Part shown: positions 8,753-21,595 of the stretch, in pieces
Layout of the letters: each line of letters opens with the position of its first letter
Position numbering within the stretch: the stretch's first letter is position 1
Origin: Escherichia coli
GTDB lineage: Bacteria; Pseudomonadota; Gammaproteobacteria; Enterobacterales; Enterobacteriaceae
Assembly (NCBI RefSeq): GCF_024502345.1
Contig: NZ_JALDNN010000001.1
Strand: one strand, 5' to 3'
Length of the DNA: 64,000 bases
Position numbers and translations under genes: made by a program
The notes under the pieces: model-generated
Databases searched by the model: none
What the model was told of the DNA's origin: nothing
Seen by the model: only the letters and a program-made list of their open reading frames with translations

Positions 8753-8853
8753 GCCTCATATAGCCCCTCGTACAGGGGTTCATTCACCATAGTCAGTAGC
8801 ACCTCTACGGATAGCTACTGACATGAATTGCCGTGAGGCTAAGGGAACTGGCG

Positions 8854-9948
8854 ATGATTACAGTTAATCGTGAGCGTGTGGACAATCTCTCCGGGTCTGT
8901 ATACCTGGGGCGAAATACTGACGGCAATAGGTGCTATGGGCGAATTGATAAACTCGCCTGGGTAATGGATTTGTCTGATGATAGCGAGAATGCAGTGCTG
9001 AGTGGGCGTCTGGCTGGGCTGAGAGCGGGAGGGAACTATATCGTGCGGTGCCGCCCTGCCGGTAAAGGGGAGTGTTCTGGCCTCTATCGATCCGTGGTGG
9101 AGATCCGTCTCAAGAGTAAATCCAGTCATCATCCGCTGATGCTGGTCATTTACTTTGCGCCGACGAATACGGTGCGGGGCTCAGTGCGTATGGAAATGAG
9201 TCCTCAGCACTATTCAGCAGAGCAGATCACAGGACTGTTCATCTGGCTTGGGCGTAAGGGACGTCTGGGGAAGTACCTGTACAGGGGCTTGCGCCAGGCA
9301 TGGGTGACGTCCATTCACTACGCACTGGATGTAAAGGGAATGAAACTTCATGACTACCTGATTGGTCTGGCAAAGGTTCATGATGGTGAGTTTTACGATT
9401 TGCATGGTGAACAGGAAGGGTTGCGTCTGGGCTCTGCCACGCTGGTAGCCTCTGTCTACGCCAAGGTCCATTCTCCGTCGTTGAGCGTGGAGGAGCGCTA
9501 TGCATCTCCAAAGATTACGCTGGAGGAGGCGCAATTCGAGCGTTTTTTACGTCTGGAACTCCGCCTGCAGCCGGGGCGCCAGCAATTGAAGCTAAGTCAG
9601 ATGACGAGTATGACCTGTCTGGTCAGCAGGCTGATGTTCTGGCGTCGGGAGGTACTCCAGGATCGTCGGCTGGATCCGGATTTTGCGCAGCGGCTGGCGT
9701 TGATGTCAGTACCACGTGCACGGGCCACGTTTGAGCCCGCGAGGAGTCTGAATGGCCACAGAGTCAGTGCAACCCCAAAGGCTGCCAGGAAACGCGTGGA
9801 CAAGGTCATGGCTAATTACCGGGCGGCATTGTTTGATTCTGCGGCTATCTGGGACCAGTTACCGGTCATTCTCGCAAAACTCGGGCTTCTCGCGCAGCCT
9901 CAGTACTGGATTTACCGTAATCGCGTGAAGTGGCGAGGGAGCCGCTGA
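8854..9948 (+). CDS. hypothetical island protein, 364 aa
   Basis: Track ORF begins at GTG 8833; ATG 8854 with upstream AAGGGA RBS preferred. No Walker or nuclease motif recognised. Confidence 0.5.
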   Translation: MITVNRERVDNLSGSVYLGRNTDGNRCYGRIDKLAWVMDLSDDSENAVLSGRLAGLRAGGNYIVRCRPAGKGECSGLYRSVVEIRLKSKSSHHPLMLVIYFAPTNTVRGSVRMEMSPQHYSAEQITGLFIWLGRKGRLGKYLYRGLRQAWVTSIHYALDVKGMKLHDYLIGLAKVHDGEFYDLHGEQEGLRLGSATLVASVYAKVHSPSLSVEERYASPKITLEEAQFERFLRLELRLQPGRQQLKLSQMTSMTCLVSRLMFWRREVLQDRRLDPDFAQRLALMSVPRARATFEPARSLNGHRVSATPKAARKRVDKVMANYRAALFDSAAIWDQLPVILAKLGLLAQPQYWIYRNRVKWRGSR

Positions 9949-10301: not shown

Positions 10302-11786
10302 ATGAAAGCCTACTGCACACAAAACAATATTCTCGTCACGGAAAGCACGATGAATGCTTTCAGGGAGGCCATTTTTAGCGTTCCATTCGACGACACATGT
10401 GACGGACGATGCAAGCCAACGTGGTATATGTCCATTGCTATTTTTTTGCAGCATCTTATTTGCAGCGCCACTGCGAGCCGTAACACGCGTAAGCGGTCGC
10501 AATTTAAGGGGAACCGACTATGGACCTGTTCAGTTCCGTTTCCTTATGCACTGGGAGAAAAAGTGGCTCCGGCAGTATTCAGACGCTCAAGAGAGCTACC
10601 GTTTGAAAGAGCGCTGGAAAAGCTGGAGGAAGTAGGGTTTATCAGAATCATTACACACGATGTTATACGTCACAAATGCCGGGAATTTGCGCTTTCTCGG
10701 CGGTTTCTCGACGTGCTGTTTCCCGGGGACAGAACTGCTTATCTCAACCTGGAAGATCGGTATGGCTATCTGACCGATGTTTACCGCAGACGTATGGGAC
10801 CGATGACGCTGGAAGAACGGCTTGCTCAGGCCATGTTACGAAAGTGCAAAGTCAGGCATTTAACGTCAACCCGGAATATACCTGATAAGGCCTTTCGTGA
10901 GCGGGTTGCAGCGGTGTATGACCGGCTTGAAGCGTTGCCGGTTAACATCGATGCGCTGAGGATGTACTGTAACGAGCAACCATCCACTGTGAACAGGGTT
11001 TATTATCACAATTTTATCAGCCATCTTTGTGAAGCCGGTGTTGAGGCTATCAGCCTGAGTCCGTTAATCGTCTCATATCGGCAGGTATATCGTACGGCTA
11101 GGCTGGGCGGGCGTTCGTTTGAGGTGGGGAAGGGGTTTCAGTATCTGCCAAAAGGCATGAAATGGGCATGTCTGGGGCAGGGCTATAACTACGATATAAA
11201 AAGCAGCCAGCTTGAGATACTGCGTCATGAGCTGCAGCGTATCGGATTATCCGATAAAAACCTGAAGCGGCTGGAAACGGATTACATTACAAAGAAACTG
11301 GGCGTCACCACGGATGAGGTAAAACAATTTAGGTTTGCTGCTGTCTTTAGCGCTGGTTCGGTCAGCCTTTCAGTGAAAAGTGGAGTAAGGAAGAGGCTGA
11401 ATAAAGTTCTCGGCGATAAGAGGGCAGAAAACGTGCTCAAACGCTGGAAAAAATTGATGCAACCGCTACGGGAAGATCTGAAGAGGCTGATCGAGGATTA
11501 TCTGGCGACGGGAACCACAAATCGATACGGGCTTTGCGTGAAAAATGCTGTGGGACAAAATTTTAACTGTAGCTGGAAGAATTTCAGCGCCAGACAGGCA
11601 TGGCAGCCAGCGCAGATGCACCGAAAGCTGCTTGCGCACATGTTACAGGGGCTGGAAAGTCAGGCTGTGTACGATTATGTTGCCAGCAATAAAGGCGTTT
11701 GTGCGCTAGAGCATGATGGGTTTGTTACATATGAAGAGATAACTGACTGGTCCCATCCATATCTTTTGATAGAGAAAAAGCATTGA
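10302..11786 (+). CDS. hypothetical island protein, 494 aa
   Basis: Long ORF directly upstream of hsdM; no helicase or nuclease motifs, so it is not HsdR. Confidence 0.5.
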   Translation: MKAYCTQNNILVTESTMNAFREAIFSVPFDDTCDGRCKPTWYMSIAIFLQHLICSATASRNTRKRSQFKGNRLWTCSVPFPYALGEKVAPAVFRRSRELPFERALEKLEEVGFIRIITHDVIRHKCREFALSRRFLDVLFPGDRTAYLNLEDRYGYLTDVYRRRMGPMTLEERLAQAMLRKCKVRHLTSTRNIPDKAFRERVAAVYDRLEALPVNIDALRMYCNEQPSTVNRVYYHNFISHLCEAGVEAISLSPLIVSYRQVYRTARLGGRSFEVGKGFQYLPKGMKWACLGQGYNYDIKSSQLEILRHELQRIGLSDKNLKRLETDYITKKLGVTTDEVKQFRFAAVFSAGSVSLSVKSGVRKRLNKVLGDKRAENVLKRWKKLMQPLREDLKRLIEDYLATGTTNRYGLCVKNAVGQNFNCSWKNFSARQAWQPAQMHRKLLAHMLQGLESQAVYDYVASNKGVCALEHDGFVTYEEITDWSHPYLLIEKKH

Positions 11787-11922: not shown

Positions 11923-13458
11923 ATGAAGCAAGAAACGATCGTTCAAAAAATTTGGAGTCTCTGCAACATACTAAGAGGTGATGGTATCACCTATTATCAG
12001 TATGTTTCTGAACTAAGTTATTTGCTTTTTCTGAAGATTGCTCAAGAAAATGGTTCAGAAAAGCTGATACCTCAAGGCTACCGCTGGGCTGATCTTGAAT
12101 CCCATCCAGAAGCAGGATTATTAGGGTTTTATCAAGAGATGCTCACTCACTTGGGTGCGCATGTTAAAAATGAAATCATAAGAGAGATTTACGCATTCCC
12201 TACAACCGTTTTCTCCCATTCTGAAAATTTAAAAGCTGTTGTAGATGGTATTTCGAAAATAGAGTGGCACCAAGTAGGAAAAGATGGGTTTGGCGACCTC
12301 TATAGTGGTTTAATTGATAAAAGTGCTCAAGATACGCGTTCGGGAGCCGGGCAGTATTTTACTCCACGCTCTTTAGTTAACACGATAGTGAGATTGATAA
12401 AACCGAGTCTTGGCGAATTGATTCAAGATCCTGCGTCAGGAAGTGGTGGCTTCTTAGTTTCTGCTGACAGCTATATTCGAGTCAAATATTCACGAAAAGA
12501 GTATCAATTGAACCCTCCTAAATATCAAGGAGTGGAAATAGAGAAAAATACTCGTCGAATTTGCTTAATGAATACCTTTTTACATGATTTAGATGCACAC
12601 ATTATCTATGGTGATGCACTGACTGATGACGTAGCAGGGTTGGATGAAGCCGATGTAATCTTAGCCAATCCCCCTTTTGGCAATAAGGCTGGGGGACAAC
12701 GTCCTTTACGTAACGATATTCCATTCCCCAATACAAATAAGCAATTAGCTTTTTTGCAGCATATTTATTTGAAGCTTAAAGCTGGCGGTCGAGCTGCTGT
12801 AGTGGTACCCGATAATGTACTATTCGAATCTGGGGTTGGTACCGATGTACGTCGTGACTTAATGAATAAGTGCAATCTTCATACTATCTTGCGACTGCCC
12901 ACTGGTATTTTTTACGCCCAAGGTGTTAAAACCAATGTTCTGTTCTTTACTAAAGGCTCTGACAAAGATAAATATCAACAAGATAGCTGCACTGAGAACG
13001 TCTGGGTATACGATCTACGTACCAATATGCCAAGTTTTGGTAAACGTACACCCTTCGGTAATTCAGATATTGGCTTTGCGGCAGAAGATTTCGGTACAGA
13101 TCAGCACCTCGGCGCGTTCGAAAAAGTGTTCGGAGATAATCCAGACGGCACCAGCAAGCGCACCGAAGGTGAATACAGCTTTGGTGCAACAGATATTGAA
13201 ATTGATACAGAAGCAGTAGAAGAAAACCTGAATGTTGATGAACAGCTAGCCCATTCTCGCTGGCGCTACTTCAGCCGTGAGTGGATAGCCAATAATAAAG
13301 GCGATTCGCTGGATATCTCATGGTTAAAAGACAAAAAGAGTGTCGATGCGGCTGGTTTATCCGAGCCAAACGTTCTCGCTCGCGAGGCAAAAGAAGAATT
13401 AGAAGCAGCATTGAGTGAGCTGGATAGTTTATTGATCGCATTGGAAGGGGCCGAATAA
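11923..13458 (+). CDS. hsdM: Type I restriction-modification N6-adenine DNA methyltransferase subunit HsdM
   Basis: 511 aa; SAM-binding and catalytic motifs (DPASGSGGFL; ANPPFG) typical of HsdM; AT-rich codon usage. Confidence 0.9.
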   Translation: MKQETIVQKIWSLCNILRGDGITYYQYVSELSYLLFLKIAQENGSEKLIPQGYRWADLESHPEAGLLGFYQEMLTHLGAHVKNEIIREIYAFPTTVFSHSENLKAVVDGISKIEWHQVGKDGFGDLYSGLIDKSAQDTRSGAGQYFTPRSLVNTIVRLIKPSLGELIQDPASGSGGFLVSADSYIRVKYSRKEYQLNPPKYQGVEIEKNTRRICLMNTFLHDLDAHIIYGDALTDDVAGLDEADVILANPPFGNKAGGQRPLRNDIPFPNTNKQLAFLQHIYLKLKAGGRAAVVVPDNVLFESGVGTDVRRDLMNKCNLHTILRLPTGIFYAQGVKTNVLFFTKGSDKDKYQQDSCTENVWVYDLRTNMPSFGKRTPFGNSDIGFAAEDFGTDQHLGAFEKVFGDNPDGTSKRTEGEYSFGATDIEIDTEAVEENLNVDEQLAHSRWRYFSREWIANNKGDSLDISWLKDKKSVDAAGLSEPNVLAREAKEELEAALSELDSLLIALEGAE

Positions 13459-15143
13459 TGATTGAGACTTCTTTACCATGGCTGAGAGTCCAGCTCGGTG
13501 ACGTAGTTCCCTATGGTAAAACCGAAAAATGCGAATTATCTGACGTTACAGGTAACACTTGGGTACTTGAGCTCGAAGATATAGAAAAAGATAGCTCGAA
13601 GATCATACAACGGCTAGATGCAACTGCACGACCATTTAAAAGCACGAAAAATAAATTCCGTAAAGGAGATGTCCTTTACGGGAAACTGCGACCTTACTTA
13701 AATAAAGTTGTCATTGCGGACAGTTCTGGCGTTTGTTCGACTGAAATCATGCCTCTAAATGCTGAGCCATTTATTGACAATAGGTACCTCTTTTACTGGT
13801 TGAAAACTGAAGTTTTTATTGATTTTGTAAATTCTGTAAGCTACGGCGTGAATATGCCTCGACTCGGAACTAAAGATGGATTAGCTGCTCCATTTATTGT
13901 AGCTCCGCTTGCTGAGCAAAAAGTTATTGCCGATAAACTTGATACCTTGTTGGTGCAGGTGGATGCCATTAAGGCTCGCCTCGAACGCATCCCAGAAATC
14001 CTAAAAACCTTCCGCCAATCGATCCTCACCGCCGCAGTTAGTGGGAAGTTGACGGAGGGATGGCGATTAAAGAATAAACTCAGTAATGTAGTTGTAAAAC
14101 AAAATATCAATCTACCAAAATTAACCCCAAATGAACACTACCTCGAACATGTTGAAGGATGGCAATGGGTAAGACTGGGTTCTGTTGTTAGTCTAATAAA
14201 CGGCGATAGAGGAAAAAACTACCCTAATAAAAATGAATATGTTAAGGATGGAATACCGTTCATAAATACAGGGCATATTAATTCAGATGGAACACTTTCT
14301 GATGAACGCATGAATTTTATTTCCAAGGATAAGTTTGACTCCTTAAGTGGGGGAAAGACGAAATCAACAGATCTAGTTTATTGCCTCCGAGGTGCAACTA
14401 TGGGAAAAACTGCACGTGTCCACTACAAAATAGGGGCAATAGCATCCTCTCTTGTAATTATCCGACCGAGTGATTACATAGACAGAGATTTCGCATATTA
14501 TTTTCTTATTAGCCCTCCGGCTAAAGATTTAATTAATGAATTTGATAACGGATCCGCTCAGCCAAATCTATCTGCAAAGAGTTTGTCTACATACCCTTTA
14601 CAACTCCCTTCGTTTAAAGAACAAATCGAAATCGTCAGTCGCGTCGAAGAAATGTTCAACTTTTCATCTCTTGCCGAAGCAAAAGCTAAAACTGCATTAG
14701 AGCGTGTCAATAAAATTACTCAATCAATCCTAGCCAAAGCTTTCCGAGGCGAACTCACTGCAGATTGGCGCGCCGCCAACCCGGATTTAATCAGCGAAGA
14801 GAAAAGTGCTGAAGCTTTGCTGGAAAAAATTAAGGCAGAACGTGAAGCCATCGAAAAACAACCTAAGCCAACACGTTCCGTTATAAAAAAAAATACAGGT
14901 GGCCGTATGAGTAAACAGATTATCAAAGTGGTTGAAGCGCTAAAACAAGCGGGAAAACCGCTTAGTGGCCAACAATTGTTAGCTGCAGCTGGTTACCCTA
15001 GTGATAGCAGTACTGAGCAACTGGAACAGTTCTTTCTGGATATACGTGACGCTCTTACCATAGAAGAGTCCATTGTAAAGCTTGAGCGCGGTGGCGACAG
15101 TCAAGATTGGTTCGCCTTGGCTAATAATAAAGCAAAGAACTAA
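13458..15143 (+). CDS. hsdS: Type I restriction-modification specificity subunit HsdS with ~120-aa C-terminal extension
   Basis: Start ATG overlaps hsdM stop (ATGA). Two variable target-recognition regions separated by conserved helical repeats (...PLAEQKVIADKLDTL... and ...LPSFKEQIEIVSRVEEM...ILAKAFRGEL), then an extra tail. Confidence 0.85.
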   Translation: MIETSLPWLRVQLGDVVPYGKTEKCELSDVTGNTWVLELEDIEKDSSKIIQRLDATARPFKSTKNKFRKGDVLYGKLRPYLNKVVIADSSGVCSTEIMPLNAEPFIDNRYLFYWLKTEVFIDFVNSVSYGVNMPRLGTKDGLAAPFIVAPLAEQKVIADKLDTLLVQVDAIKARLERIPEILKTFRQSILTAAVSGKLTEGWRLKNKLSNVVVKQNINLPKLTPNEHYLEHVEGWQWVRLGSVVSLINGDRGKNYPNKNEYVKDGIPFINTGHINSDGTLSDERMNFISKDKFDSLSGGKTKSTDLVYCLRGATMGKTARVHYKIGAIASSLVIIRPSDYIDRDFAYYFLISPPAKDLINEFDNGSAQPNLSAKSLSTYPLQLPSFKEQIEIVSRVEEMFNFSSLAEAKAKTALERVNKITQSILAKAFRGELTADWRAANPDLISEEKSAEALLEKIKAEREAIEKQPKPTRSVIKKNTGGRMSKQIIKVVEALKQAGKPLSGQQLLAAAGYPSDSSTEQLEQFFLDIRDALTIEESIVKLERGGDSQDWFALANNKAKN

Positions 15144-15152
15144 GGACAGCCC

Positions 15153-16757
15153 ATGAAAGTCGACAAACTGCATATTCGCTCACGCTTTAAAAATCTTGAA
15201 AACGTGAAAGTGGACTTTGACGAAAACCACCTGATGACCGTTATCGTAGGCCGTAATGGTTCCGGTAAGTCCAATGTTCTAGAAGCCTTGGTTGCTATAT
15301 TTCGCAATCTTGATTTAGGTGAAGCACCAACATTTTCTTATGAGTTGGACTATCAACTAGGTGAGGAAGCCGGGGTTAAGTGGTATGACGTCAAGGTTGA
15401 TGCAGATCCAGACCGCGGAACGCTAGCAAAGCAATACCAAGTTTATGTCAAAGATAAACACGATAGCAAAGCGGATTTCAAGCTTACACCCTTCTCCAAA
15501 GTGAAACGCGATAAGAAAACCAAACAAGCAGAGTTTCTTCCTAACTTTCTATTCGCCTATTATTCCGGACCATCGGATAGATTAGAAAAATACTTTCGAA
15601 AGCATCGTGATGATTATTATCGAAACCTACTCTACAACAAGCTTGACTTGAAAGCAGATATTCGTTCTCTATTTTATGCCAAACCCTATCACAGTCAGTT
15701 TGTGCTCTTGGCATTTTTCCTGTCAGATGAAAATAGTCCTCAGCGCAAGTTTATTAAGGAGCATTTGGGTATTGAGGGATTGGACAGTATTCATTTTGTG
15801 ATGCGCCAACCTGAGTGGGCTAAGCTGAAGGGGGAATTATTCTGGGGAGCACAAGGTGTAGTTCGTCGCTTTTTGGATGAATTGATACAGCACACATTGT
15901 CACCGATAAAAGTAACTCGTCAAGAAGATACGTCGTTAACGGGTAGTTATATTCGAAATGAGTTCTTTCATCTATTTTTACCTGACGTAAACGCACTACA
16001 TGAATTTGCTAGAGATCTCAGTGCTGACGAACTGTTTAAAATGCTTGAAAGCACTCTGCTGTCAGAAATTATCTCTGAGGTTAGCATACGGGTGAAAGTA
16101 ACCAGCAGCAGGGAGCCTCTCACTTTCCGTGAACTTAGCGAAGGTGAACAACAGCTATTAACCGTATTGGGCTTACTCTGGTTCACCGGTGGTAAAGATT
16201 CCTTATTTTTACTCGACGAACCTGATACCCACCTTAATCCGTCATGGGCCGTTAAATACCTTAAATTCCTGCGTGAATTCGTACCCAATCATGAAACCAG
16301 CCATTTACTAATGGTCACACACCATCCTTTAGCTATTGCCGAGCTGAAGAAACAACAAGTACAAGTCATGTGGCGTGACGATGAAAATAATGTTCACTCA
16401 CAAGAGCCTTATATAGATCCTCGTGGCGCTGGCTTTATGGCCACACTTACTGAGATTTTTGGTCTAAATACAACACTGGATCTGGAAACCCAAAAGTTAT
16501 TGGACGATAGGAACGAACTAGCCCATATCGAAAATCGAACAGAAGATCAGAACAACCAGCTTGACCTTCTTAATGATGAGTTAAACAGACTAGGATTTTC
16601 ACTTGAAAACAGGGACCCGTTATACAGCGAGTTTCTTTTAGCATGGCAAGACCTAAGATACAGCGATAAACCACCACTAACACCGGATAAAGCGGCTCAG
16701 AGACGAGCTGCTATGAAAAATGTAATTGAGGCGCTTAAAGCTAAGAAGGGTTGCTAA
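15153..16757 (+). CDS. ABC-type (AAA_15/AAA_21-like) ATPase, Septu PtuA-like
   Basis: 534 aa; Walker A GRNGSGKSN, signature-like LSEGEQ, Walker B LFLLDEPDTHLNP, H-loop VTHHP; starts 10 bp after hsdS with AAGGA RBS. Confidence 0.75.
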   Translation: MKVDKLHIRSRFKNLENVKVDFDENHLMTVIVGRNGSGKSNVLEALVAIFRNLDLGEAPTFSYELDYQLGEEAGVKWYDVKVDADPDRGTLAKQYQVYVKDKHDSKADFKLTPFSKVKRDKKTKQAEFLPNFLFAYYSGPSDRLEKYFRKHRDDYYRNLLYNKLDLKADIRSLFYAKPYHSQFVLLAFFLSDENSPQRKFIKEHLGIEGLDSIHFVMRQPEWAKLKGELFWGAQGVVRRFLDELIQHTLSPIKVTRQEDTSLTGSYIRNEFFHLFLPDVNALHEFARDLSADELFKMLESTLLSEIISEVSIRVKVTSSREPLTFRELSEGEQQLLTVLGLLWFTGGKDSLFLLDEPDTHLNPSWAVKYLKFLREFVPNHETSHLLMVTHHPLAIAELKKQQVQVMWRDDENNVHSQEPYIDPRGAGFMATLTEIFGLNTTLDLETQKLLDDRNELAHIENRTEDQNNQLDLLNDELNRLGFSLENRDPLYSEFLLAWQDLRYSDKPPLTPDKAAQRRAAMKNVIEALKAKKGC

Positions 16758-17599
16758 TGATTTACATCAAACGAGACGCCACGCTAATTCCTGCAAAGGT
16801 ACTTGCCGTTGCCCAACGCGCGCAAGATGCTCTGGAACAGCTTCCCGCTGAGCAGAGGAAAGGTTTCATCAAGAAAAAGTCTCATATATGGAGAGGCTTT
16901 TCTAAATACCTAGCCCAAATGTCTTATGGGAAGTGCTGGTATTCAGAAGCTAAAGATGCAGGTGCAAATTTCGATGTAGATCATTTCCGACCTAAGGCTG
17001 AAGCAAAGAGGACAGAAGATTTGGTCGATGCGGATGGTTATGCGTGGCTCGCATTTGATTGGGAAAACTTCAGGCTTTCTGCTCAGAATTGTAACCGTTT
17101 AAACACAGATGAATCAGGTAACACGGTAGGAAAAGGCAGTTGGTTCCCGCTGCTAGATGGTAGCCCTAAAGCCTGCTGGGATAATCGCTGTATTAACGAT
17201 GAAAAAGTCACTTTGCTAGACCCTGTAGTTAAAGCTGACCTCACCTATATAGACTACGACGACAGCGGTAGATTTACTTCAAGTAAGCTCTGCGTTGGTA
17301 AGGCAGCATTAAGGGTTAGGCAATCTGGCATTATTTATGGCCTCAATTTGGAGAAAATGCGTGAAGCACGATTTCAGGTTATGAGGGAGGCTAAAGAACT
17401 CCTTGAAACTATTCACCAATGTGCCGAAGACTTAGACCCTCTGGGCAATGAAGCCCCCATGAGAACTATTGAACGACAAATAGAACAACTCCAATCCAGA
17501 ACCCGGGCCGATGCACCATTTAGCCGTGCAGTAAGAACACAACTGATAAAACTCGGTGCAGAGGATTACTTAATTGATCGAAGTTTGGATGCAGCCTAG
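16757..17599 (+). CDS. HNH endonuclease-domain protein, Septu PtuB-like
   Basis: ATG at 16757 overlaps the upstream stop (TAATG); HNH-type motif CWYSE...DVDHFRPK...NFRLSAQNCNRLN. Confidence 0.7.
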   Translation: MIYIKRDATLIPAKVLAVAQRAQDALEQLPAEQRKGFIKKKSHIWRGFSKYLAQMSYGKCWYSEAKDAGANFDVDHFRPKAEAKRTEDLVDADGYAWLAFDWENFRLSAQNCNRLNTDESGNTVGKGSWFPLLDGSPKACWDNRCINDEKVTLLDPVVKADLTYIDYDDSGRFTSSKLCVGKAALRVRQSGIIYGLNLEKMREARFQVMREAKELLETIHQCAEDLDPLGNEAPMRTIERQIEQLQSRTRADAPFSRAVRTQLIKLGAEDYLIDRSLDAA

Positions 17600-17770: not shown

Positions 17771-17941
17771 ATGAGCACCCACAAAAAAACTCAGGCAAGC
17801 TACGCTAAGCCATCTCGTGCTGACATTGTTCGCTCAGTAGCAACATCTACGGCTGTTGAAACAGGGCAGTCCTCCGCGAAGATCGAAGCTTCACTTGAAG
17901 CCACGCGCAAAAAATTTGCTCATTTGCGTCTTGCGGTTTAA
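17771..17941 (+). CDS. small protein of unknown function (56 aa), convergent with the Fic gene
   Basis: ATG preceded by AGGAG RBS 5 nt upstream; 3' end overlaps the Fic stop region by 4 bp. Confidence 0.5.
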   Translation: MSTHKKTQASYAKPSRADIVRSVATSTAVETGQSSAKIEASLEATRKKFAHLRLAV

Positions 17942-18555
17942 TCCCTTCTTAATGCTTCTCGCACCCAGTGTTTCATCGGCTCATAGTCCATTGATATGCC
18001 AGCATGGATGGCCGATATATACTGAGTTTTGTTTTGCTCCCAGCTTTGATAATCCAGCGGTTTGTATCCTCCCTGAACGGCCATCACGTCGGCTAGCAGT
18101 CGCGACAGGCGTCCGTTTCCCTCTCTGAATGGATGGATAAGTATTATCTCTACATGGGTTATGGCGATAGCGGTGATGAGTTGTTCTTCGTCCATGCCGC
18201 TACACGGTGTGTATTGAGCCAGATACTTAGTGTCGAATTCGTTCAGCAGTTTTGGCACCTGCGCTGAGGGGGCAAACATAAAGCCGCCTTTGCTAATATT
18301 CACCGCTCTTTCTTGTCCAGCCCACTCGTAGATGTTACCTAACCAGCGGCGATGCCAGCTTTTTAGCATGGCTACGCTGAGCTGTCCTTCCGGGAACTGC
18401 TCTTCAAAAACAGACTGGTAGAGTTGTTCTAACAGGACAAGTTCAGCCTCATCCATCTCATCAGAAGTCGCAATCCCCAGCTTATTAGCCAAAACCTGCT
18501 CGCCAGAGTCTTTCTCATACTGGCCTTCACTGCTGGATACATGGTATCGGCTCAT
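17938..18555 (-). CDS. Fic-domain protein (putative AMP-transferase)
   Basis: 205 aa with canonical Fic motif HPFREGNGRLSRLL. Confidence 0.85.
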   Translation of the reverse strand: MSRYHVSSSEGQYEKDSGEQVLANKLGIATSDEMDEAELVLLEQLYQSVFEEQFPEGQLSVAMLKSWHRRWLGNIYEWAGQERAVNISKGGFMFAPSAQVPKLLNEFDTKYLAQYTPCSGMDEEQLITAIAITHVEIILIHPFREGNGRLSRLLADVMAVQGGYKPLDYQSWEQNKTQYISAIHAGISMDYEPMKHWVREALRRD

Positions 18556-19443: not shown

Positions 19444-21522
19444 TTAAATCAATGCCGATTTATCAATTCCCAGTCGCTTCATCCGTGACAGCAGGGTCGT
19501 GCGTTTCAGCCCCAGACGTTGCGCAGCGCCTTTAGGCCCGGCAACCACGCCGTTAGTTTCTTTCAGCACGCGAACAATCAACTGATATTCATCTTCGCCC
19601 TCCTGAGCGACAACCGTTGCGGCAGGCGGCGTTTCAGGCTCCGGTAAAGCAATATCTGGCAATGACAACTGCAGCACGTTGCCGCGTGTTAGCAATACCG
19701 CGCGCTCAATGACGTTTTCCAGTTCGCGTACGTTACCCGGCCACTCCATATTGCTCAAGGTGCGCAACGTCTCGGCAGGAATGCTGTCGATATTGCGCCC
19801 CAGACGACGGGCAATTTTGAAGGTAAAGGCTTTCGCCAGCAGCGGAATATCTTCCGGACGCTCGCGTAGTGGCGGAAGGTGAATCGGGAATACGTTCAGG
19901 CGGTAATAGAGATCGCTACGGAACTCACGGTCGGCGACCATTTTTTTCAGATCGCGGTTAGTCGCGGCAATTAAACGTACGTCCGTCTGAATGATTTTGT
20001 TGCTGCCGAGACGTTCAAACTCCTGTTCCTGCAATACACGCAGCAACTTCGGCTGTAACTCCAGTGGCATATCGCCCACTTCGTCGAGGAACAGGGAGCT
20101 TTTATCCGCCAGTTCAAAACGACCAATGCGCTGGGCGCTGGCACCGGTAAAAGCCCCACGCTCATGACCAAACAGATCGCTTTCCAGTAATCCGGCAGGC
20201 ATCGCCGCGCAGTTCATTTTGACCATGCGGCGATTATTACGCCCACTGAGATTATGGATCGCGCGGGCAATCAGCTCTTTACCCGTGCCAGTTTCACCGA
20301 GGATCAGCACGGTACTGTCACTTTGCGCCACCATTTCAACTTGTTTAAGCACGCTGTACATGGCTTCGCTGCGGCCAATAATCTCGCCAAATTCACTATC
20401 AACATTGTTGAGCTGCTCGGTCAGGGCGAGGTTTTCATCAACCAGCCGTTCTTTCAGACGATGGATTTCCTGATAGGCGAGGGCGTTATCGACAGCGATT
20501 GCCACACGTTCGGCAATCTGGCGCAGTAAATTCAGATTGGTAGTGGTAAACACTTTCTCTTCGCATTGCGCCAGTTTCAGCACGCCCAGCATGGTGTCGC
20601 CAGACATCAGCGGTAACAGGCACAAGGTTTGAATCTGGTTGCCCCAGGTGTCGAACAACATGCGTTCATAGGGGGCTAAATCGTCCCGCTCGTGGAGATT
20701 GATCAGCAGCATCTCTTTACTTTTGAACACGCGTTCGGTGAGGGTTCCGGCTTCATCGACTTCGCTCTGTTCGTGGGCGGGATGTTGTTTATCAAGATAG
20801 TGAGTGGAGTAGATGTTGAGTTTGTTTTTACGGTGGCTGCGTAAGACAATGCTGATATCGTCAATGTCGAAATAGTAATGGATTTCTTTGGCGACTTCGC
20901 TGACCAGTTCGTCCATATCCAGGCGGGAAAGCACCGCGTTGGTGATGGCGACCAGGATGCGGAAGTTATCGCGTTCCCGGCATAACAACTCATAGTCGAC
21001 ATTGTTAACGACGCGACTCTGGATTTGTTCGGTGATGACAGAAACGATCTGCGTAAATGTTTGCAGACGATTGAACTCTTTTTCGCTCCAGGGGCGATCG
21101 TCATAACGAATAAATTCACAGCCACCAAAAATATGCCCTTCCGCCGCCAGTGGCATCAGGCAATAGTGACCAAATTTTGGGTATAGCCCACCTGCGGCCA
21201 GCTGCGGCCAGGTTTCACAAAATTCTTCGTAACTGCAATGCAGCGTATCAGGGCGCGACAAAATGCTGCGTACCGGACCGTGTGCCAGAACAGTTTCGTC
21301 TTCATATTTAATGGGGGTGTCTTTTTCACGCGATGCGTAATAAGACGCACGTTGAGTCTGCGCTTGCCACAACACAATAGCCGCGTTGTCGGCGAGCGCA
21401 GAACGCTTTACCAGTTGCGAAAGAGCCTCACACAGCGAGGCCAGATCGGGCTGCTGCAATAGTGTCCGAGTGATGTCGAACAACCCTTGCTGTCCGAGAT
21501 CACTCATCGGTGTATATGACAT
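19444..21522 (-). CDS. fhlA: formate hydrogenlyase transcriptional activator FhlA (sigma54-dependent)
   Basis: Protein MSYTPMSDLGQQGLF... with AAA+ sigma54-interaction domain ([14 protein letters not shown]) and C-terminal HTH; start 12 codons inside the track ORF. Confidence 0.95.
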   Translation of the reverse strand: MSYTPMSDLGQQGLFDITRTLLQQPDLASLCEALSQLVKRSALADNAAIVLWQAQTQRASYYASREKDTPIKYEDETVLAHGPVRSILSRPDTLHCSYEEFCETWPQLAAGGLYPKFGHYCLMPLAAEGHIFGGCEFIRYDDRPWSEKEFNRLQTFTQIVSVITEQIQSRVVNNVDYELLCRERDNFRILVAITNAVLSRLDMDELVSEVAKEIHYYFDIDDISIVLRSHRKNKLNIYSTHYLDKQHPAHEQSEVDEAGTLTERVFKSKEMLLINLHERDDLAPYERMLFDTWGNQIQTLCLLPLMSGDTMLGVLKLAQCEEKVFTTTNLNLLRQIAERVAIAVDNALAYQEIHRLKERLVDENLALTEQLNNVDSEFGEIIGRSEAMYSVLKQVEMVAQSDSTVLILGETGTGKELIARAIHNLSGRNNRRMVKMNCAAMPAGLLESDLFGHERGAFTGASAQRIGRFELADKSSLFLDEVGDMPLELQPKLLRVLQEQEFERLGSNKIIQTDVRLIAATNRDLKKMVADREFRSDLYYRLNVFPIHLPPLRERPEDIPLLAKAFTFKIARRLGRNIDSIPAETLRTLSNMEWPGNVRELENVIERAVLLTRGNVLQLSLPDIALPEPETPPAATVVAQEGEDEYQLIVRVLKETNGVVAGPKGAAQRLGLKRTTLLSRMKRLGIDKSALI

Positions 21523-21595
21523 TTTGTTCTTCCAGGAAAGCACCGCAAAGCGGTGCAAAAGGTCATTGACTAACTATAGGAGATTTAGAATTTTA

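What the first reader, a model, noticed from the sequence alone, without database searches (positions are those of the whole stretch)
14770..15143. HsdS carries an unusual ~120-residue C-terminal tail
The protein is 561 aa. After the conserved distal helical region ending ...ILAKAFRGELTADWR, the ORF continues with a charged linker and a small predicted-helical domain (...IIKVVEALKQAGKPLSGQQLLAAAGYP...EQFFLDIRDALTIEESIV...). This extension sits at the protein end that abuts the ATPase gene and could be an adaptor for the downstream ATPase/HNH pair.
Basis: partly seen in the sequence, partly recalled or inferred. Interest (0 to 1): 0.5.

Follow-up and report, generated by a model that had tools for sequence, protein, structure and literature searches.

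The report
HsdS winged-helix tail tied to Septu
The DNA-recognition subunit of this restriction-type methylase ends in a small extra domain found only where a Septu-like ATPase/nuclease pair follows, so the domain is probably the link between a DNA or anti-restriction sensor and a separate phage-defence effector.

Summary
The ORF is real: hsdS 13458-15143, 561 aa, operon-coupled to hsdM and to a PtuA-like ABC ATPase and a PtuB-like HNH nuclease (Septu type). The "120-residue tail" is only partly unusual. Residues 439-465 match the normal C-terminus of EcoKI HsdS. The extra part is about 96 aa: a basic, low-confidence linker (468-490) and an acidic winged-helix (WH) domain (484/491-558).

The WH family is rare: 128 of 1.84 billion representative proteins, almost always at the C-terminal end of HsdS-sized proteins. 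In every locus examined (about 30 reached through the tail alone) it is followed directly by the PtuA-like ATPase and, where sequence continues, the HNH gene. These loci span alpha-, beta- and gammaproteobacteria, a Tn7-like element and a conjugative plasmid. HsdR is present in 7 loci and absent from the rest, including this window.

The tail is under strong purifying selection (dN/dS about 0.09). It tracks the ATPase rather than HsdM. In E. coli MB06233, at the same site, HsdM is 89% identical but the ATPase only 42%, and the tail is correspondingly diverged.

Best reading: a flexible tether docking PtuAB onto the HsdM2S complex, giving a PrrC- or Ronin-like composite system. Physical binding is inferred, not shown. 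This is a new variant of a known kind.

The parts
11923..13458 (+). hsdM, type I N6-adenine DNA methyltransferase, 511 aa. Its stop overlaps the hsdS start (ATGA).
   Evidence: PADLOC MTase_I PDLC03026, E=3e-190. Motif I DPASGSGGF and motif IV NPPF are intact. All loci examined that carry this 511-aa HsdM clade lack an adjacent HsdR.
13458..15143 (+). hsdS, specificity subunit, 561 aa. Layout: TRD1 (aa 9-148), long helix CR1 (151-195), TRD2 (236-383), long helix CR2 (386-429), EcoKI-type terminal helix, linker, WH domain.
   Evidence: Pfam Methylase_S twice. EcoKI HsdS 2y7c, E=4e-55. AF2 full-length model has mean pLDDT 91.3.
14772..14858 (+). aa 439-467: ordinary EcoKI-type C-terminal segment (NPDLIS...SAEALLEKIKAEREAIE), with a helix at 451-467. 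It lies inside the reported tail but is not unusual.
   Evidence: Aligns to EcoKI HsdS residues about 428-454. A similar motif is present in O157 type IB HsdS.
14859..14927 (+). aa 468-490: basic, Lys/Pro-rich flexible linker (KQPKPTRSVIKKNTGGRMSKQII).
   Evidence: pLDDT 62-66, below 50 at residues 481-484. The segment IEKQPKPTRSVIKKNTGGR has net charge +5.
14885..14893 (+). A9 homopolymer inside the linker. It is followed by SD-like AGGTGG (14897-14902) and an in-frame ATG (14907, Met484) at the start of the WH domain.
   Evidence: A-runs of at least 7 nt lie in the 75 nt upstream of the WH start in 12 of the 27 loci surveyed. Length polymorphism: K. pneumoniae A7/A8/A10 (out of frame) and E. 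cloacae A8 (out of frame) versus A9 (in frame).
14907..15140 (+). aa 484-561: acidic winged-helix domain, the truly novel part of the tail. Conserved motif: PLSGQQLLxAAGYPxDSxTExLExFFLDIR...R..D.QDWF.L.
15153..16757 (+). ptuA-like ABC/SMC-type ATPase, 534 aa, starting 9 nt after the hsdS stop.
   Evidence: PADLOC PtuA PDLC00293, E=2e-215. TIGR04435 'restriction system-associated AAA' at 163 bits, below its cutoff. Walker A GRNGSGKS and Walker B LFLLDEP. Only distant from solved PtuA structures, E about 1e-7.
16757..17599 (+). ptuB-like HNH endonuclease, 280 aa from ATG 16757 (TAATG overlap with ptuA). The ORF listing gives an alternative TTG start at 16751.
   Evidence: PADLOC PtuB PDLC00343, E=1e-99. 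HNH motif FDVDHFRPK is conserved in all loci. RefSeq start taken.

Best explanation
The last ~96 residues of HsdS are a flexible basic linker plus an acidic winged-helix domain. I propose this domain is a protein-protein docking module that tethers the Septu-type PtuA ATPase, and through it the PtuB HNH nuclease, to the HsdM2-HsdS recognition/methylation complex.

On this reading the four genes form one composite defence system. HsdM2S is the sequence-specific DNA reader and methylase, and also the natural target of anti-restriction proteins. PtuAB is the effector. Coupling the two places PtuAB under control of the state of the type I complex.

Two sub-modes remain open:
(a) Guard or decoy. 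PtuAB is held inactive on M2S and released or activated when a DNA mimic such as Ocr or ArdA, or another inhibitor, engages M2S. This parallels PrrC-EcoprrI, Ronin, and retron Eco7 sequestering PtuAB.
(b) Effector recruitment. M2S bound to unmethylated target sites activates PtuAB in place of HsdR.
I favour (a) slightly, because the cassette also exists alongside a complete HsdR.

Shown: the domain architecture, the operon coupling, the strict co-occurrence, the covariation and the purifying selection. Inferred: physical binding, the trigger and the substrate.
For: 1. Strict linkage. All 18 species genomes found with the tail alone have the order hsdM-hsdS(tail)-ptuA-ptuB. The same holds for K. 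pneumoniae, A. baumannii (Tn7-like cargo), Salmonella, E. cloacae and a V. vulnificus conjugative plasmid. It also holds for the most distant detectable tails and for contig-end fragments. In the reverse direction, three sampled PtuA homologues (69-75% identity) all sit after a 535-545-aa HsdS.
2. Rarity and position. Only 128 of 1.84e9 representative proteins carry the domain. Nearly all place it at the extreme C-terminus of HsdS-sized proteins or their fragments; one 479-aa repeat protein is a weak exception.
3. The tail follows the ATPase. Distance-matrix correlation is r=0.62 for tail-PtuA and 0.41 for tail-HsdM. The partial correlation tail~PtuA|HsdM is 0.56, against 0.27 for tail~HsdM|PtuA. 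In E. coli MB06233, same island and site, HsdM is 89% identical but the ATPase is 42% identical (a different PADLOC clade, PDLC00302), and the tail has diverged to 18 bits against the tail HMM.
4. Function is maintained. dN/dS is about 0.09. NPPF, Walker A/B and HNH motifs are intact in nearly all loci surveyed, and the few regex misses fall in truncated or disrupted genes.
5. Physical plausibility. The linker is low-confidence and the WH domain is well folded. The WH is acidic, with an acidic 'recognition' helix, which fits protein binding better than DNA reading. A GFP fused to the C-terminus of EcoKI HsdS still assembles with HsdM and methylates (abstract of PMC2914225).
6. Precedents. Ronin is HsdMS without HsdR plus an effector, triggered by ArdA/Ocr (10.1101/2023.04.06.535777). 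Retron Eco7 sequesters PtuAB (PMC12819146). Kleisin C-terminal WH domains bound to SMC-type ABC heads are among the top fold matches, although the match is not discriminating.
Against: - No direct evidence of binding. No complex model or co-purification could be done with these tools.
- The tail lies physically next to ptuA, so co-inheritance and the Mantel signal could reflect linkage alone.
- The fold matches are generic WH proteins (MarR, Fur, histone H5 score as well as kleisins).
- Foldseek on AFDB50 shows other long HsdS proteins with structurally similar WH tails at 16-28% identity. Their contexts were not checked, so the rule 'WH tail means PtuA partner' is proven only for the sequence-defined family and one divergent allele.
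- TRDs are highly diverse and the methylase motifs are intact. That fits a real sequence-specific enzyme and does not by itself discriminate between sub-modes (a) and (b).
Confidence: 0.6

Rival explanations
1. Hitch-hiking fusion. A small gene or domain became fused to hsdS once, in the ancestor of this cassette. It is carried along because it lies between hsdS and ptuA, and it does not mediate any HsdS-PtuA coupling.
For: The family is small and all members share one gene order. Adjacency alone can produce the tail-PtuA distance correlation.
Against: dN/dS is about 0.09 with saturated dS. The domain is retained across alpha-, beta- and gammaproteobacteria while HsdM clades, HsdR presence, TRDs and PtuB clades are shuffled around it. 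In MB06233 it changed together with the ATPase.
Confidence: 0.1
2. The winged helix is a DNA-binding or regulatory module. It either extends the DNA footprint of the methylase or acts as a controller-type autoregulator of the operon. It could possibly be made as a free 78-aa protein from the internal ATG.
Against: The domain is acidic (median pI 5.0). The would-be recognition helix carries net charge -2 and the wing -0.6. This reading does not explain why the domain occurs only next to PtuA. The promoter scan is at background level.
Confidence: 0.1
3. The tail acts within the type I enzyme itself, independently of PtuAB. It could, for example, modulate HsdM2S assembly, HsdR docking or restriction alleviation.
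For: It is part of HsdS, and 7 loci keep an EcoKI-type HsdR directly upstream.
Against: Most loci, including the window, have no HsdR within 7-10 kb. The domain was never found in an hsd locus lacking PtuA. The canonical EcoKI and O157 type IB HsdS proteins lack it.
Confidence: 0.1
4. Switchable third component. The poly-A tract in the linker is a slippage site, genomic or transcriptional, that toggles between HsdS-WH fusion and tail-less HsdS plus a separately translated WH protein. This would tune the coupling of PtuAB to the methylase. It modifies the best explanation rather than replacing it.
For: A9 lies at 14885-14893, followed by an SD-like site and an ATG. A-runs of at least 7 nt occur upstream of the WH start in 12 of 27 loci. 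Length polymorphism is seen in K. pneumoniae (A7/A8/A10) and E. cloacae (A8 versus A9). Split tail ORFs are annotated in many genomes.
Against: The tract can be a by-product of AAA Lys codons in a Lys-rich linker. Several frameshifted loci carry other disruptions or come from error-prone assemblies. Some 'tail-only' ORFs are merely extra gene calls inside an intact hsdS (L038).
Confidence: 0.1

Closest known systems
PrrC-EcoprrI (anticodon nuclease embedded in a type I RM locus)
   Same: An ABC-type ATPase effector is encoded inside or next to hsdM/hsdS. The effector is thought to be kept latent by association with the type I enzyme and unleashed when a phage inhibitor hits that enzyme (as summarised). 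Characterised PtuAB systems also target tRNA, specifically tRNA-Tyr.
   Different: Here the effector is a two-protein PtuA/PtuB (HNH) pair, not a single PrrC polypeptide. HsdR is usually absent. HsdS carries a dedicated extra domain that could make the contact; no such domain is known for EcoprrI.
Ronin (HsdM + HsdS without HsdR + RonA; decoy immunity)
   Same: An HsdR-less hsdMS pair on a mobile island in E. coli is tightly linked to a toxic effector. The proposed logic is that HsdMS senses anti-restriction proteins.
   Different: The Ronin effector is a 61-aa membrane peptide, whereas here it is an ABC ATPase plus an HNH nuclease. This cassette also occurs with HsdR. All HsdM proteins retain NPPF and the TRDs are diverse. 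The WH tail has no counterpart described for Ronin.
Septu (PtuA-PtuB) and retron type I-A (Eco7/Ec78)
   Same: PtuA and PtuB are recognised at full length by PADLOC Septu models. The retron example shows that PtuAB can be co-opted and sequestered by an added sensor module.
   Different: This PtuA clade is very distant from the solved PtuA proteins (E about 1e-7). The added module is a type I methylase rather than RT-msDNA. The candidate contact element sits on the partner (HsdS) rather than on PtuA.
Canonical type IA HsdS (EcoKI)
   Same: Two TRDs, two long conserved helices, and the same C-terminal NPDLIS..ALLEKIKAER segment.
   Different: EcoKI HsdS stops about 10 residues after that segment. 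This protein continues for about 96 more residues (linker plus WH).
Kleisin C-terminal winged-helix domains (ScpA, Scc1, MukF) bound to SMC ABC heads
   Different: Scores are no better than for MarR, Fur or H5 WH proteins. There is no sequence similarity and the interface was not tested. This is an analogy only.

Membership tests
Type I RM specificity subunit (HsdS) | Two target-recognition domains separated by two long conserved helices | tested here: met
   Pfam Methylase_S at aa 11-178 and 233-415. The AF2 model has helices at 151-195 and 386-429. EcoKI HsdS matches at E=4e-55.
Type I RM specificity subunit (HsdS) | Adjacent, co-transcribed HsdM with intact catalytic motifs | tested here: met
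   hsdM 11923-13458 overlaps hsdS by ATGA. NPPF and DPASGSGGF are present.
Complete type I RM system (hsdRMS) | An HsdR helicase-nuclease subunit in the locus | tested here: not met
   tblastn with an EcoKI-type HsdR (PDLC03042) finds nothing in the 64-kb window, and none is annotated within 9 kb in the identical strain ET490. An HsdR of another family, or one encoded elsewhere in the genome, was not excluded. Related cassettes L015, L017, L018, L020, L024, L025 and L041 do have HsdR.
Septu (PtuA/PtuB) | ABC-type ATPase PtuA with Walker A/B, followed by HNH nuclease PtuB | tested here: met
   PDLC00293 E=2e-215 and PDLC00343 E=1e-99. GRNGSGKS, LFLLDEP and DVDHFRPK motifs are present.
Septu (PtuA/PtuB) | Stand-alone two-gene system conferring phage resistance | not testable with these tools
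   In every locus seen, this PtuA clade sits directly after hsdS. Activity was not assayed.
Retron type I-A (Septu type II) | Reverse transcriptase and msr/msd ncRNA next to PtuAB | tested here: not met
   No RT gene is in the cassette. The neighbours are hsdM/hsdS and fic. NF041760 PtuA scores 63 bits against a cutoff of 500.
Ronin | HsdMS without HsdR, linked to the 61-aa transmembrane effector RonA | tested here: not met
   The HsdR-less hsdMS condition is met, but the linked effector is PtuAB and no RonA-like small gene lies between or beside the genes.
Ronin / PrrC-type guard of type I RM | Effector activated by anti-restriction proteins (Ocr, ArdA, Stp) | not testable with these tools
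   Requires expression of Ocr or ArdA in a strain carrying the cassette.
PrrC | Single polypeptide with an ABC ATPase N-domain and a C-terminal anticodon-nuclease domain | tested here: not met
   The best PADLOC and NCBIfam matches for the ATPase are PtuA families, and the nuclease is a separate HNH protein.
Kleisin C-terminal WHD | WH domain that binds the cap of an SMC-type ATPase head | tested here: inconclusive
Phase-variable type I RM (SSR in hsdS) | Simple-sequence repeat whose length changes switch the reading frame within a population | tested here: inconclusive
   An A9 tract is present. Tract lengths differ between strains in two species. Within-strain variation was not testable, and assembly error is not excluded.

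The most novel reading that the evidence does not exclude
This is an undescribed composite defence system. A type I methylase (HsdM2S) physically carries a Septu PtuAB ATPase/HNH effector through a dedicated winged-helix domain on HsdS. Depending on the locus, PtuAB then serves either as an HsdR substitute acting on unmethylated DNA or as a hard-wired backup that fires when anti-restriction proteins disable the type I complex. A slippery poly-A tract in the tether could let cells switch the coupling on and off.
Probability: 0.3. Interest if true: 0.75.

Novelty: new variant of a known kind. Interest (0 to 1): 0.55.

Why it matters
Defence genes embedded in type I RM loci are usually read as neighbours that may or may not cooperate. 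A domain on HsdS that exists only when a particular PtuA clade follows, and that changes when the ATPase changes, is a concrete and mutable handle for physical coupling between a restriction-type sensor and an abortive or nuclease effector.

It would give a testable mechanism for how Septu-type PtuAB, whose trigger is poorly understood, is controlled. It would extend the PrrC/Ronin/retron-Eco7 principle of an effector held by a sensor complex. It would also explain a widespread class of "orphan" hsdMS pairs on mobile islands, Tn7-like elements and plasmids in Enterobacterales, Acinetobacter, Vibrio, Shewanella and Pseudomonas.

Tried and rejected
- Frameshift or missed-stop artefact: rejected.
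- "Stand-alone" 67-83-aa homologues of the tail. I checked whether the domain is a separate gene elsewhere. Those examined were poly-A frameshifts or disrupted hsdS (L004-L009, L020, L040-43), contig-end fragments (L035, L036), or extra calls inside an intact hsdS (L038).
- "Long HsdS proteins generally have such tails": rejected for the canonical type IB HsdS of O157 Sakai. It is 584 aa because of N-terminal and central repeats and has no WH.
- Kleisin-specific homology: not supported, because the matches are generic WH.
- Pfam on the tail gave nothing. Pfam, PADLOC and NCBIfam on the upstream 494-aa and 371-aa island ORFs gave nothing.
- The search for related loci with the diverse alignment A2 failed for lack of a conserved stretch, so the narrower A3 was used.
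- The search for homologous proteins on the tail is biased to short proteins and added little.
- Seven literature searches found no description of an HsdS-WH/PtuAB system.
- A fused tail-PtuA AF2 run was considered and dropped, because the tool returns no coordinates or PAE and an interface could not be read.
Full report
**Locus.** The window is E. coli chromosome, 100% identical over the cassette to strains ET490, ET665, KMi029, MSB1_9D and ES10. A low-GC (41-44%) mobile island carrying an integrase and AlpA sits beside ygbA-fhlA-hyp. It contains four tightly packed genes on the + strand:
- hsdM, 11923-13458
- hsdS, 13458-15143 (ATGA overlap with hsdM)
- an ATPase, 15153-16757 (9-nt gap after hsdS)
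- an HNH protein, 16757-17599 (TAATG overlap with the ATPase)

PADLOC assigns them to type I MTase (3e-190), type I specificity subunit (8e-114), Septu PtuA (PDLC00293, 2e-215) and Septu PtuB (PDLC00343, 1e-99). NCBIfam gives a sub-threshold hit of the ATPase to TIGR04435, "restriction system-associated AAA family ATPase". No EcoKI-type HsdR is detectable anywhere in the 64-kb window. Promoter and terminator scans inside the cassette are at background, consistent with one operon.

**Checking the observation.** HsdS is 561 aa and ...TADWR ends at residue 438. No other frame is open across the tail. By base composition, an accidental 96-123-codon read-through has P about 0.002-0.0003.

The reported tail is heterogeneous. 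Residues 439-465 align to the natural C-terminus of EcoKI HsdS (PDB 2y7c, 464 aa). A similar DPNDEPASELLKRI motif is part of the conserved regions of a canonical type IB HsdS. The genuinely additional part is about 96 residues.

An AF2 model of the full protein, built from 59 family sequences, has mean pLDDT 91. It shows a textbook HsdS: TRD1, a 45-residue helix, TRD2, a 44-residue helix, then the EcoKI-type terminal helix at 451-467. After that comes a low-confidence segment at 468-490 (pLDDT 62-66, below 50 at 481-484), and then a compact domain at 491-558 (pLDDT 91-96).

**How common is the domain, and where does it occur?** A profile of the domain was searched exhaustively against 1.84 billion representative proteins. 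It found only 128 with E up to 1e-3. Nearly all carry the domain at the extreme C-terminus of 490-600-aa proteins or fragments of them, and most of the full-length ones have the HsdS AFxGxL motif upstream. One weak hit, a 479-aa repeat protein, does not fit this pattern.

They come from Lelliottia, Providencia, Vibrio, Shewanella, Advenella, Aeromonas, Enterobacter, Pseudomonas, Robiginitomaculum, a betaproteobacterial MAG, Methylobacter, Methylomicrobium and Undibacterium. In all 18 the tail-bearing hsdS is followed within a few bases by a PtuA homologue (62-86% identity). Wherever sequence continues, a PtuB-like HNH gene follows.

The same arrangement holds in these further cases:
- two diverged E. 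coli alleles
- K. pneumoniae and A. baumannii, the latter as cargo of a TnsB/TnsD/TnsE element
- Salmonella and E. cloacae
- a conjugative V. vulnificus plasmid
- the three most distant tails detectable, P0154, P0165 and P0167
- two contig-end fragments

Going the other way, three sampled PtuA homologues from Pectobacterium, Pseudomonas and Aliivibrio all lie behind a 535-545-aa HsdS. The cassette is rare in E. coli: 10 of 5,426 complete genomes.

**Relation to HsdR.** An EcoKI-type HsdR (PDLC03042, up to 2,530 bits) lies directly upstream of hsdM in L015, L017, L018 and L025. It is also present, frameshifted or interrupted, in L020 and L024, and present in L041. The other loci have no HsdR within 7-10 kb. 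This includes every locus carrying the 511-aa HsdM clade of the window. The tail is therefore not a marker of HsdR loss. It is a marker of PtuAB presence. All HsdM proteins keep NPPF. Walker A/B in PtuA and DH(F/Y)RPK in PtuB are found in nearly all loci, and the few misses fall in truncated or disrupted genes.

**Does the tail belong with the ATPase?** Modules have been shuffled. Relative to the window, HsdM identity ranges from 46 to 88%, PtuB from 29 to 86% and PtuA from 62 to 86%, in different combinations.

Across 21 complete loci, tail distances correlate with PtuA distances (r=0.62) better than with HsdM (0.41) or PtuB (0.16). The partial correlation tail~PtuA|HsdM is 0.56, against 0.27 for tail~HsdM|PtuA. 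Physical adjacency is a confounder here.

A sharper natural experiment is E. coli MB06233. It has the same island at the same chromosomal site, with HsdM 89% identical. Its ATPase, however, belongs to a different PADLOC PtuA clade (PDLC00302; 42% identity; 582 aa) and its PtuB to PDLC00330. Its HsdS ends in a strongly diverged WH tail (MMANKLISVLEDASDWITAQEAFRLCGV...) that scores only 18 bits against the family HMM. The tail changed with the ATPase and not with the methylase. The tail is also under strong purifying selection: median dN/dS is 0.09 over 66 pairs, with dS saturated.

**Controls.** The long (584-aa) HsdS of the canonical type IB hsdRMS locus of O157 Sakai has no WH tail. EcoKI, and the other solved HsdS proteins of 383-476 aa, lack it too.

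One open point remains. Foldseek against AFDB50 returns the sequence family first. It then returns many other 520-620-aa HsdS proteins with a structurally similar WH at 16-28% identity. MB06233 suggests these may be partners of other PtuA clades, but their contexts could not be retrieved.

**Mechanism.** The best-supported reading is a tether. A flexible basic linker presents an acidic WH domain that docks the PtuA ABC ATPase, and with it PtuB, onto HsdM2S.

C-terminal fusions to HsdS are compatible with assembly and methylation in EcoKI (abstract of PMC2914225, seen). Three precedents exist for an effector held by a sensor:
- PrrC held by EcoprrI
- Ronin, where HsdMS without HsdR senses ArdA/Ocr and releases RonA (bioRxiv 10.1101/2023.04.06.535777)
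- retron Eco7/Ec78, where RT-msDNA sequesters PtuAB (PMC12819146)

Characterised PtuAB systems cleave tRNA-Tyr (PMC11555353 and PMC13096335).

Whether this system is a guard fired by anti-restriction proteins or an HsdR-like effector recruited at unmethylated sites cannot be decided here. Coexistence with HsdR in 7 loci leans towards the guard mode. Intact methylase motifs and diverse TRDs fit either mode. Binding, trigger and substrate are all inferred.

**Novelty.** Embedding of defence genes in type I RM loci is known (10.1101/2024.01.29.577857). Seven literature searches found no description of an HsdS-borne WH domain specific to PtuAB-linked loci. I class it as a new variant of a known kind, namely a type I-coupled effector system.

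**Side observation on the linker.** An A9 run at 14885-14893 is followed by AGGTGG and an in-frame ATG (Met484) at the start of the domain. A-runs of at least 7 nt lie just upstream of the WH start in 12 of the 27 loci surveyed. K. pneumoniae loci carry A7, A8 or A10, all out of frame, giving a 488-aa HsdS plus an 80-aa WH ORF. E. cloacae carries A8 (out of frame) or A9 (in frame). This may be a slippage switch, or merely a fragile Lys-codon run. Several shifted loci are otherwise decayed or come from error-prone assemblies.

Noticed in passing
window 14885-14909: An A9 homopolymer in the HsdS linker is followed by SD-like AGGTGG and an in-frame ATG at the start of the WH domain. A-runs of at least 7 nt lie just upstream of the WH start in 12 of the 27 loci surveyed. 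Tract length differs between strains: K. pneumoniae A7/A8/A10, E. cloacae A8 versus A9. The shifted versions split HsdS from the WH ORF. This could be phase variation, transcriptional slippage or internal initiation.
   Followed up: partly
window 17938-18555 (-); also L010, L022, L029, L030, L038, L044, L045: A Fic-domain gene recurs next to the cassette. It is convergent downstream in E. coli, Salmonella and Lelliottia (PADLOC candidate PDC-S04, 1e-101). It lies directly upstream of hsdM in Pseudomonas, Aliivibrio and the V. vulnificus plasmid (SoFic-like). It may be a fifth associated component.
   Followed up: partly
window 8833-9948 and 10302-11786 (+): Two island ORFs (371 aa and 494 aa) just upstream of hsdM have no PADLOC or NCBIfam match, and the 494-aa ORF also has no Pfam match. 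A homologue or remnant of the 494-aa ORF is also upstream of hsdM in Lelliottia (L010), a similar-sized ORF sits there in Salmonella (L038), and a 476-aa ORF in E. coli MB06233.
   Followed up: partly
L044 (E. coli MB06233, NZ_CM129883.1 3565524-3583024): An allelic cassette lies at the same ygbA-fhlA site. Its HsdM is near-identical (89%), but it has a different PtuA clade (582 aa, PDLC00302), a different PtuB clade (PDLC00330) and a strongly diverged WH tail. It is present in only 1 of 5,426 complete E. coli genomes.
   Followed up: yes
AFDB50 hits (e.g. A0A0H3A5Z8, K9P6A0, N8U0F1, A0A0H3H2K3): Many other 520-620-aa HsdS proteins contain a structurally similar winged helix at only 16-28% identity. 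This hints at a wider class of WH-tailed HsdS proteins. Their gene neighbourhoods could not be retrieved.
   Followed up: no
L008 (A. baumannii CP196888.1), L045 (V. vulnificus plasmid NZ_CP012741.1), L031: The cassette travels as cargo of a Tn7-like element (TnsB, TniQ/TnsD, TnsE directly upstream) and on a conjugative MOBF plasmid. In one metagenomic contig (L031) the order is hsdS-ptuA-ptuB-hsdM.
   Followed up: partly
window 19444-21558 (-): RefSeq marks the formate hydrogenlyase activator gene (fhlA, labelled 'flhA') as frameshifted in the identical strain ET490. The ORF listing shows a continuous 704-aa ORF from a TTG start in the window.
   Followed up: no
window 17771-17941 (+): RefSeq annotates a 56-aa hypothetical ORF whose end overlaps the 3' end of the convergent fic gene. 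The same small ORF is annotated in Salmonella (L038) and E. coli MB06233 (L044).
   Followed up: no
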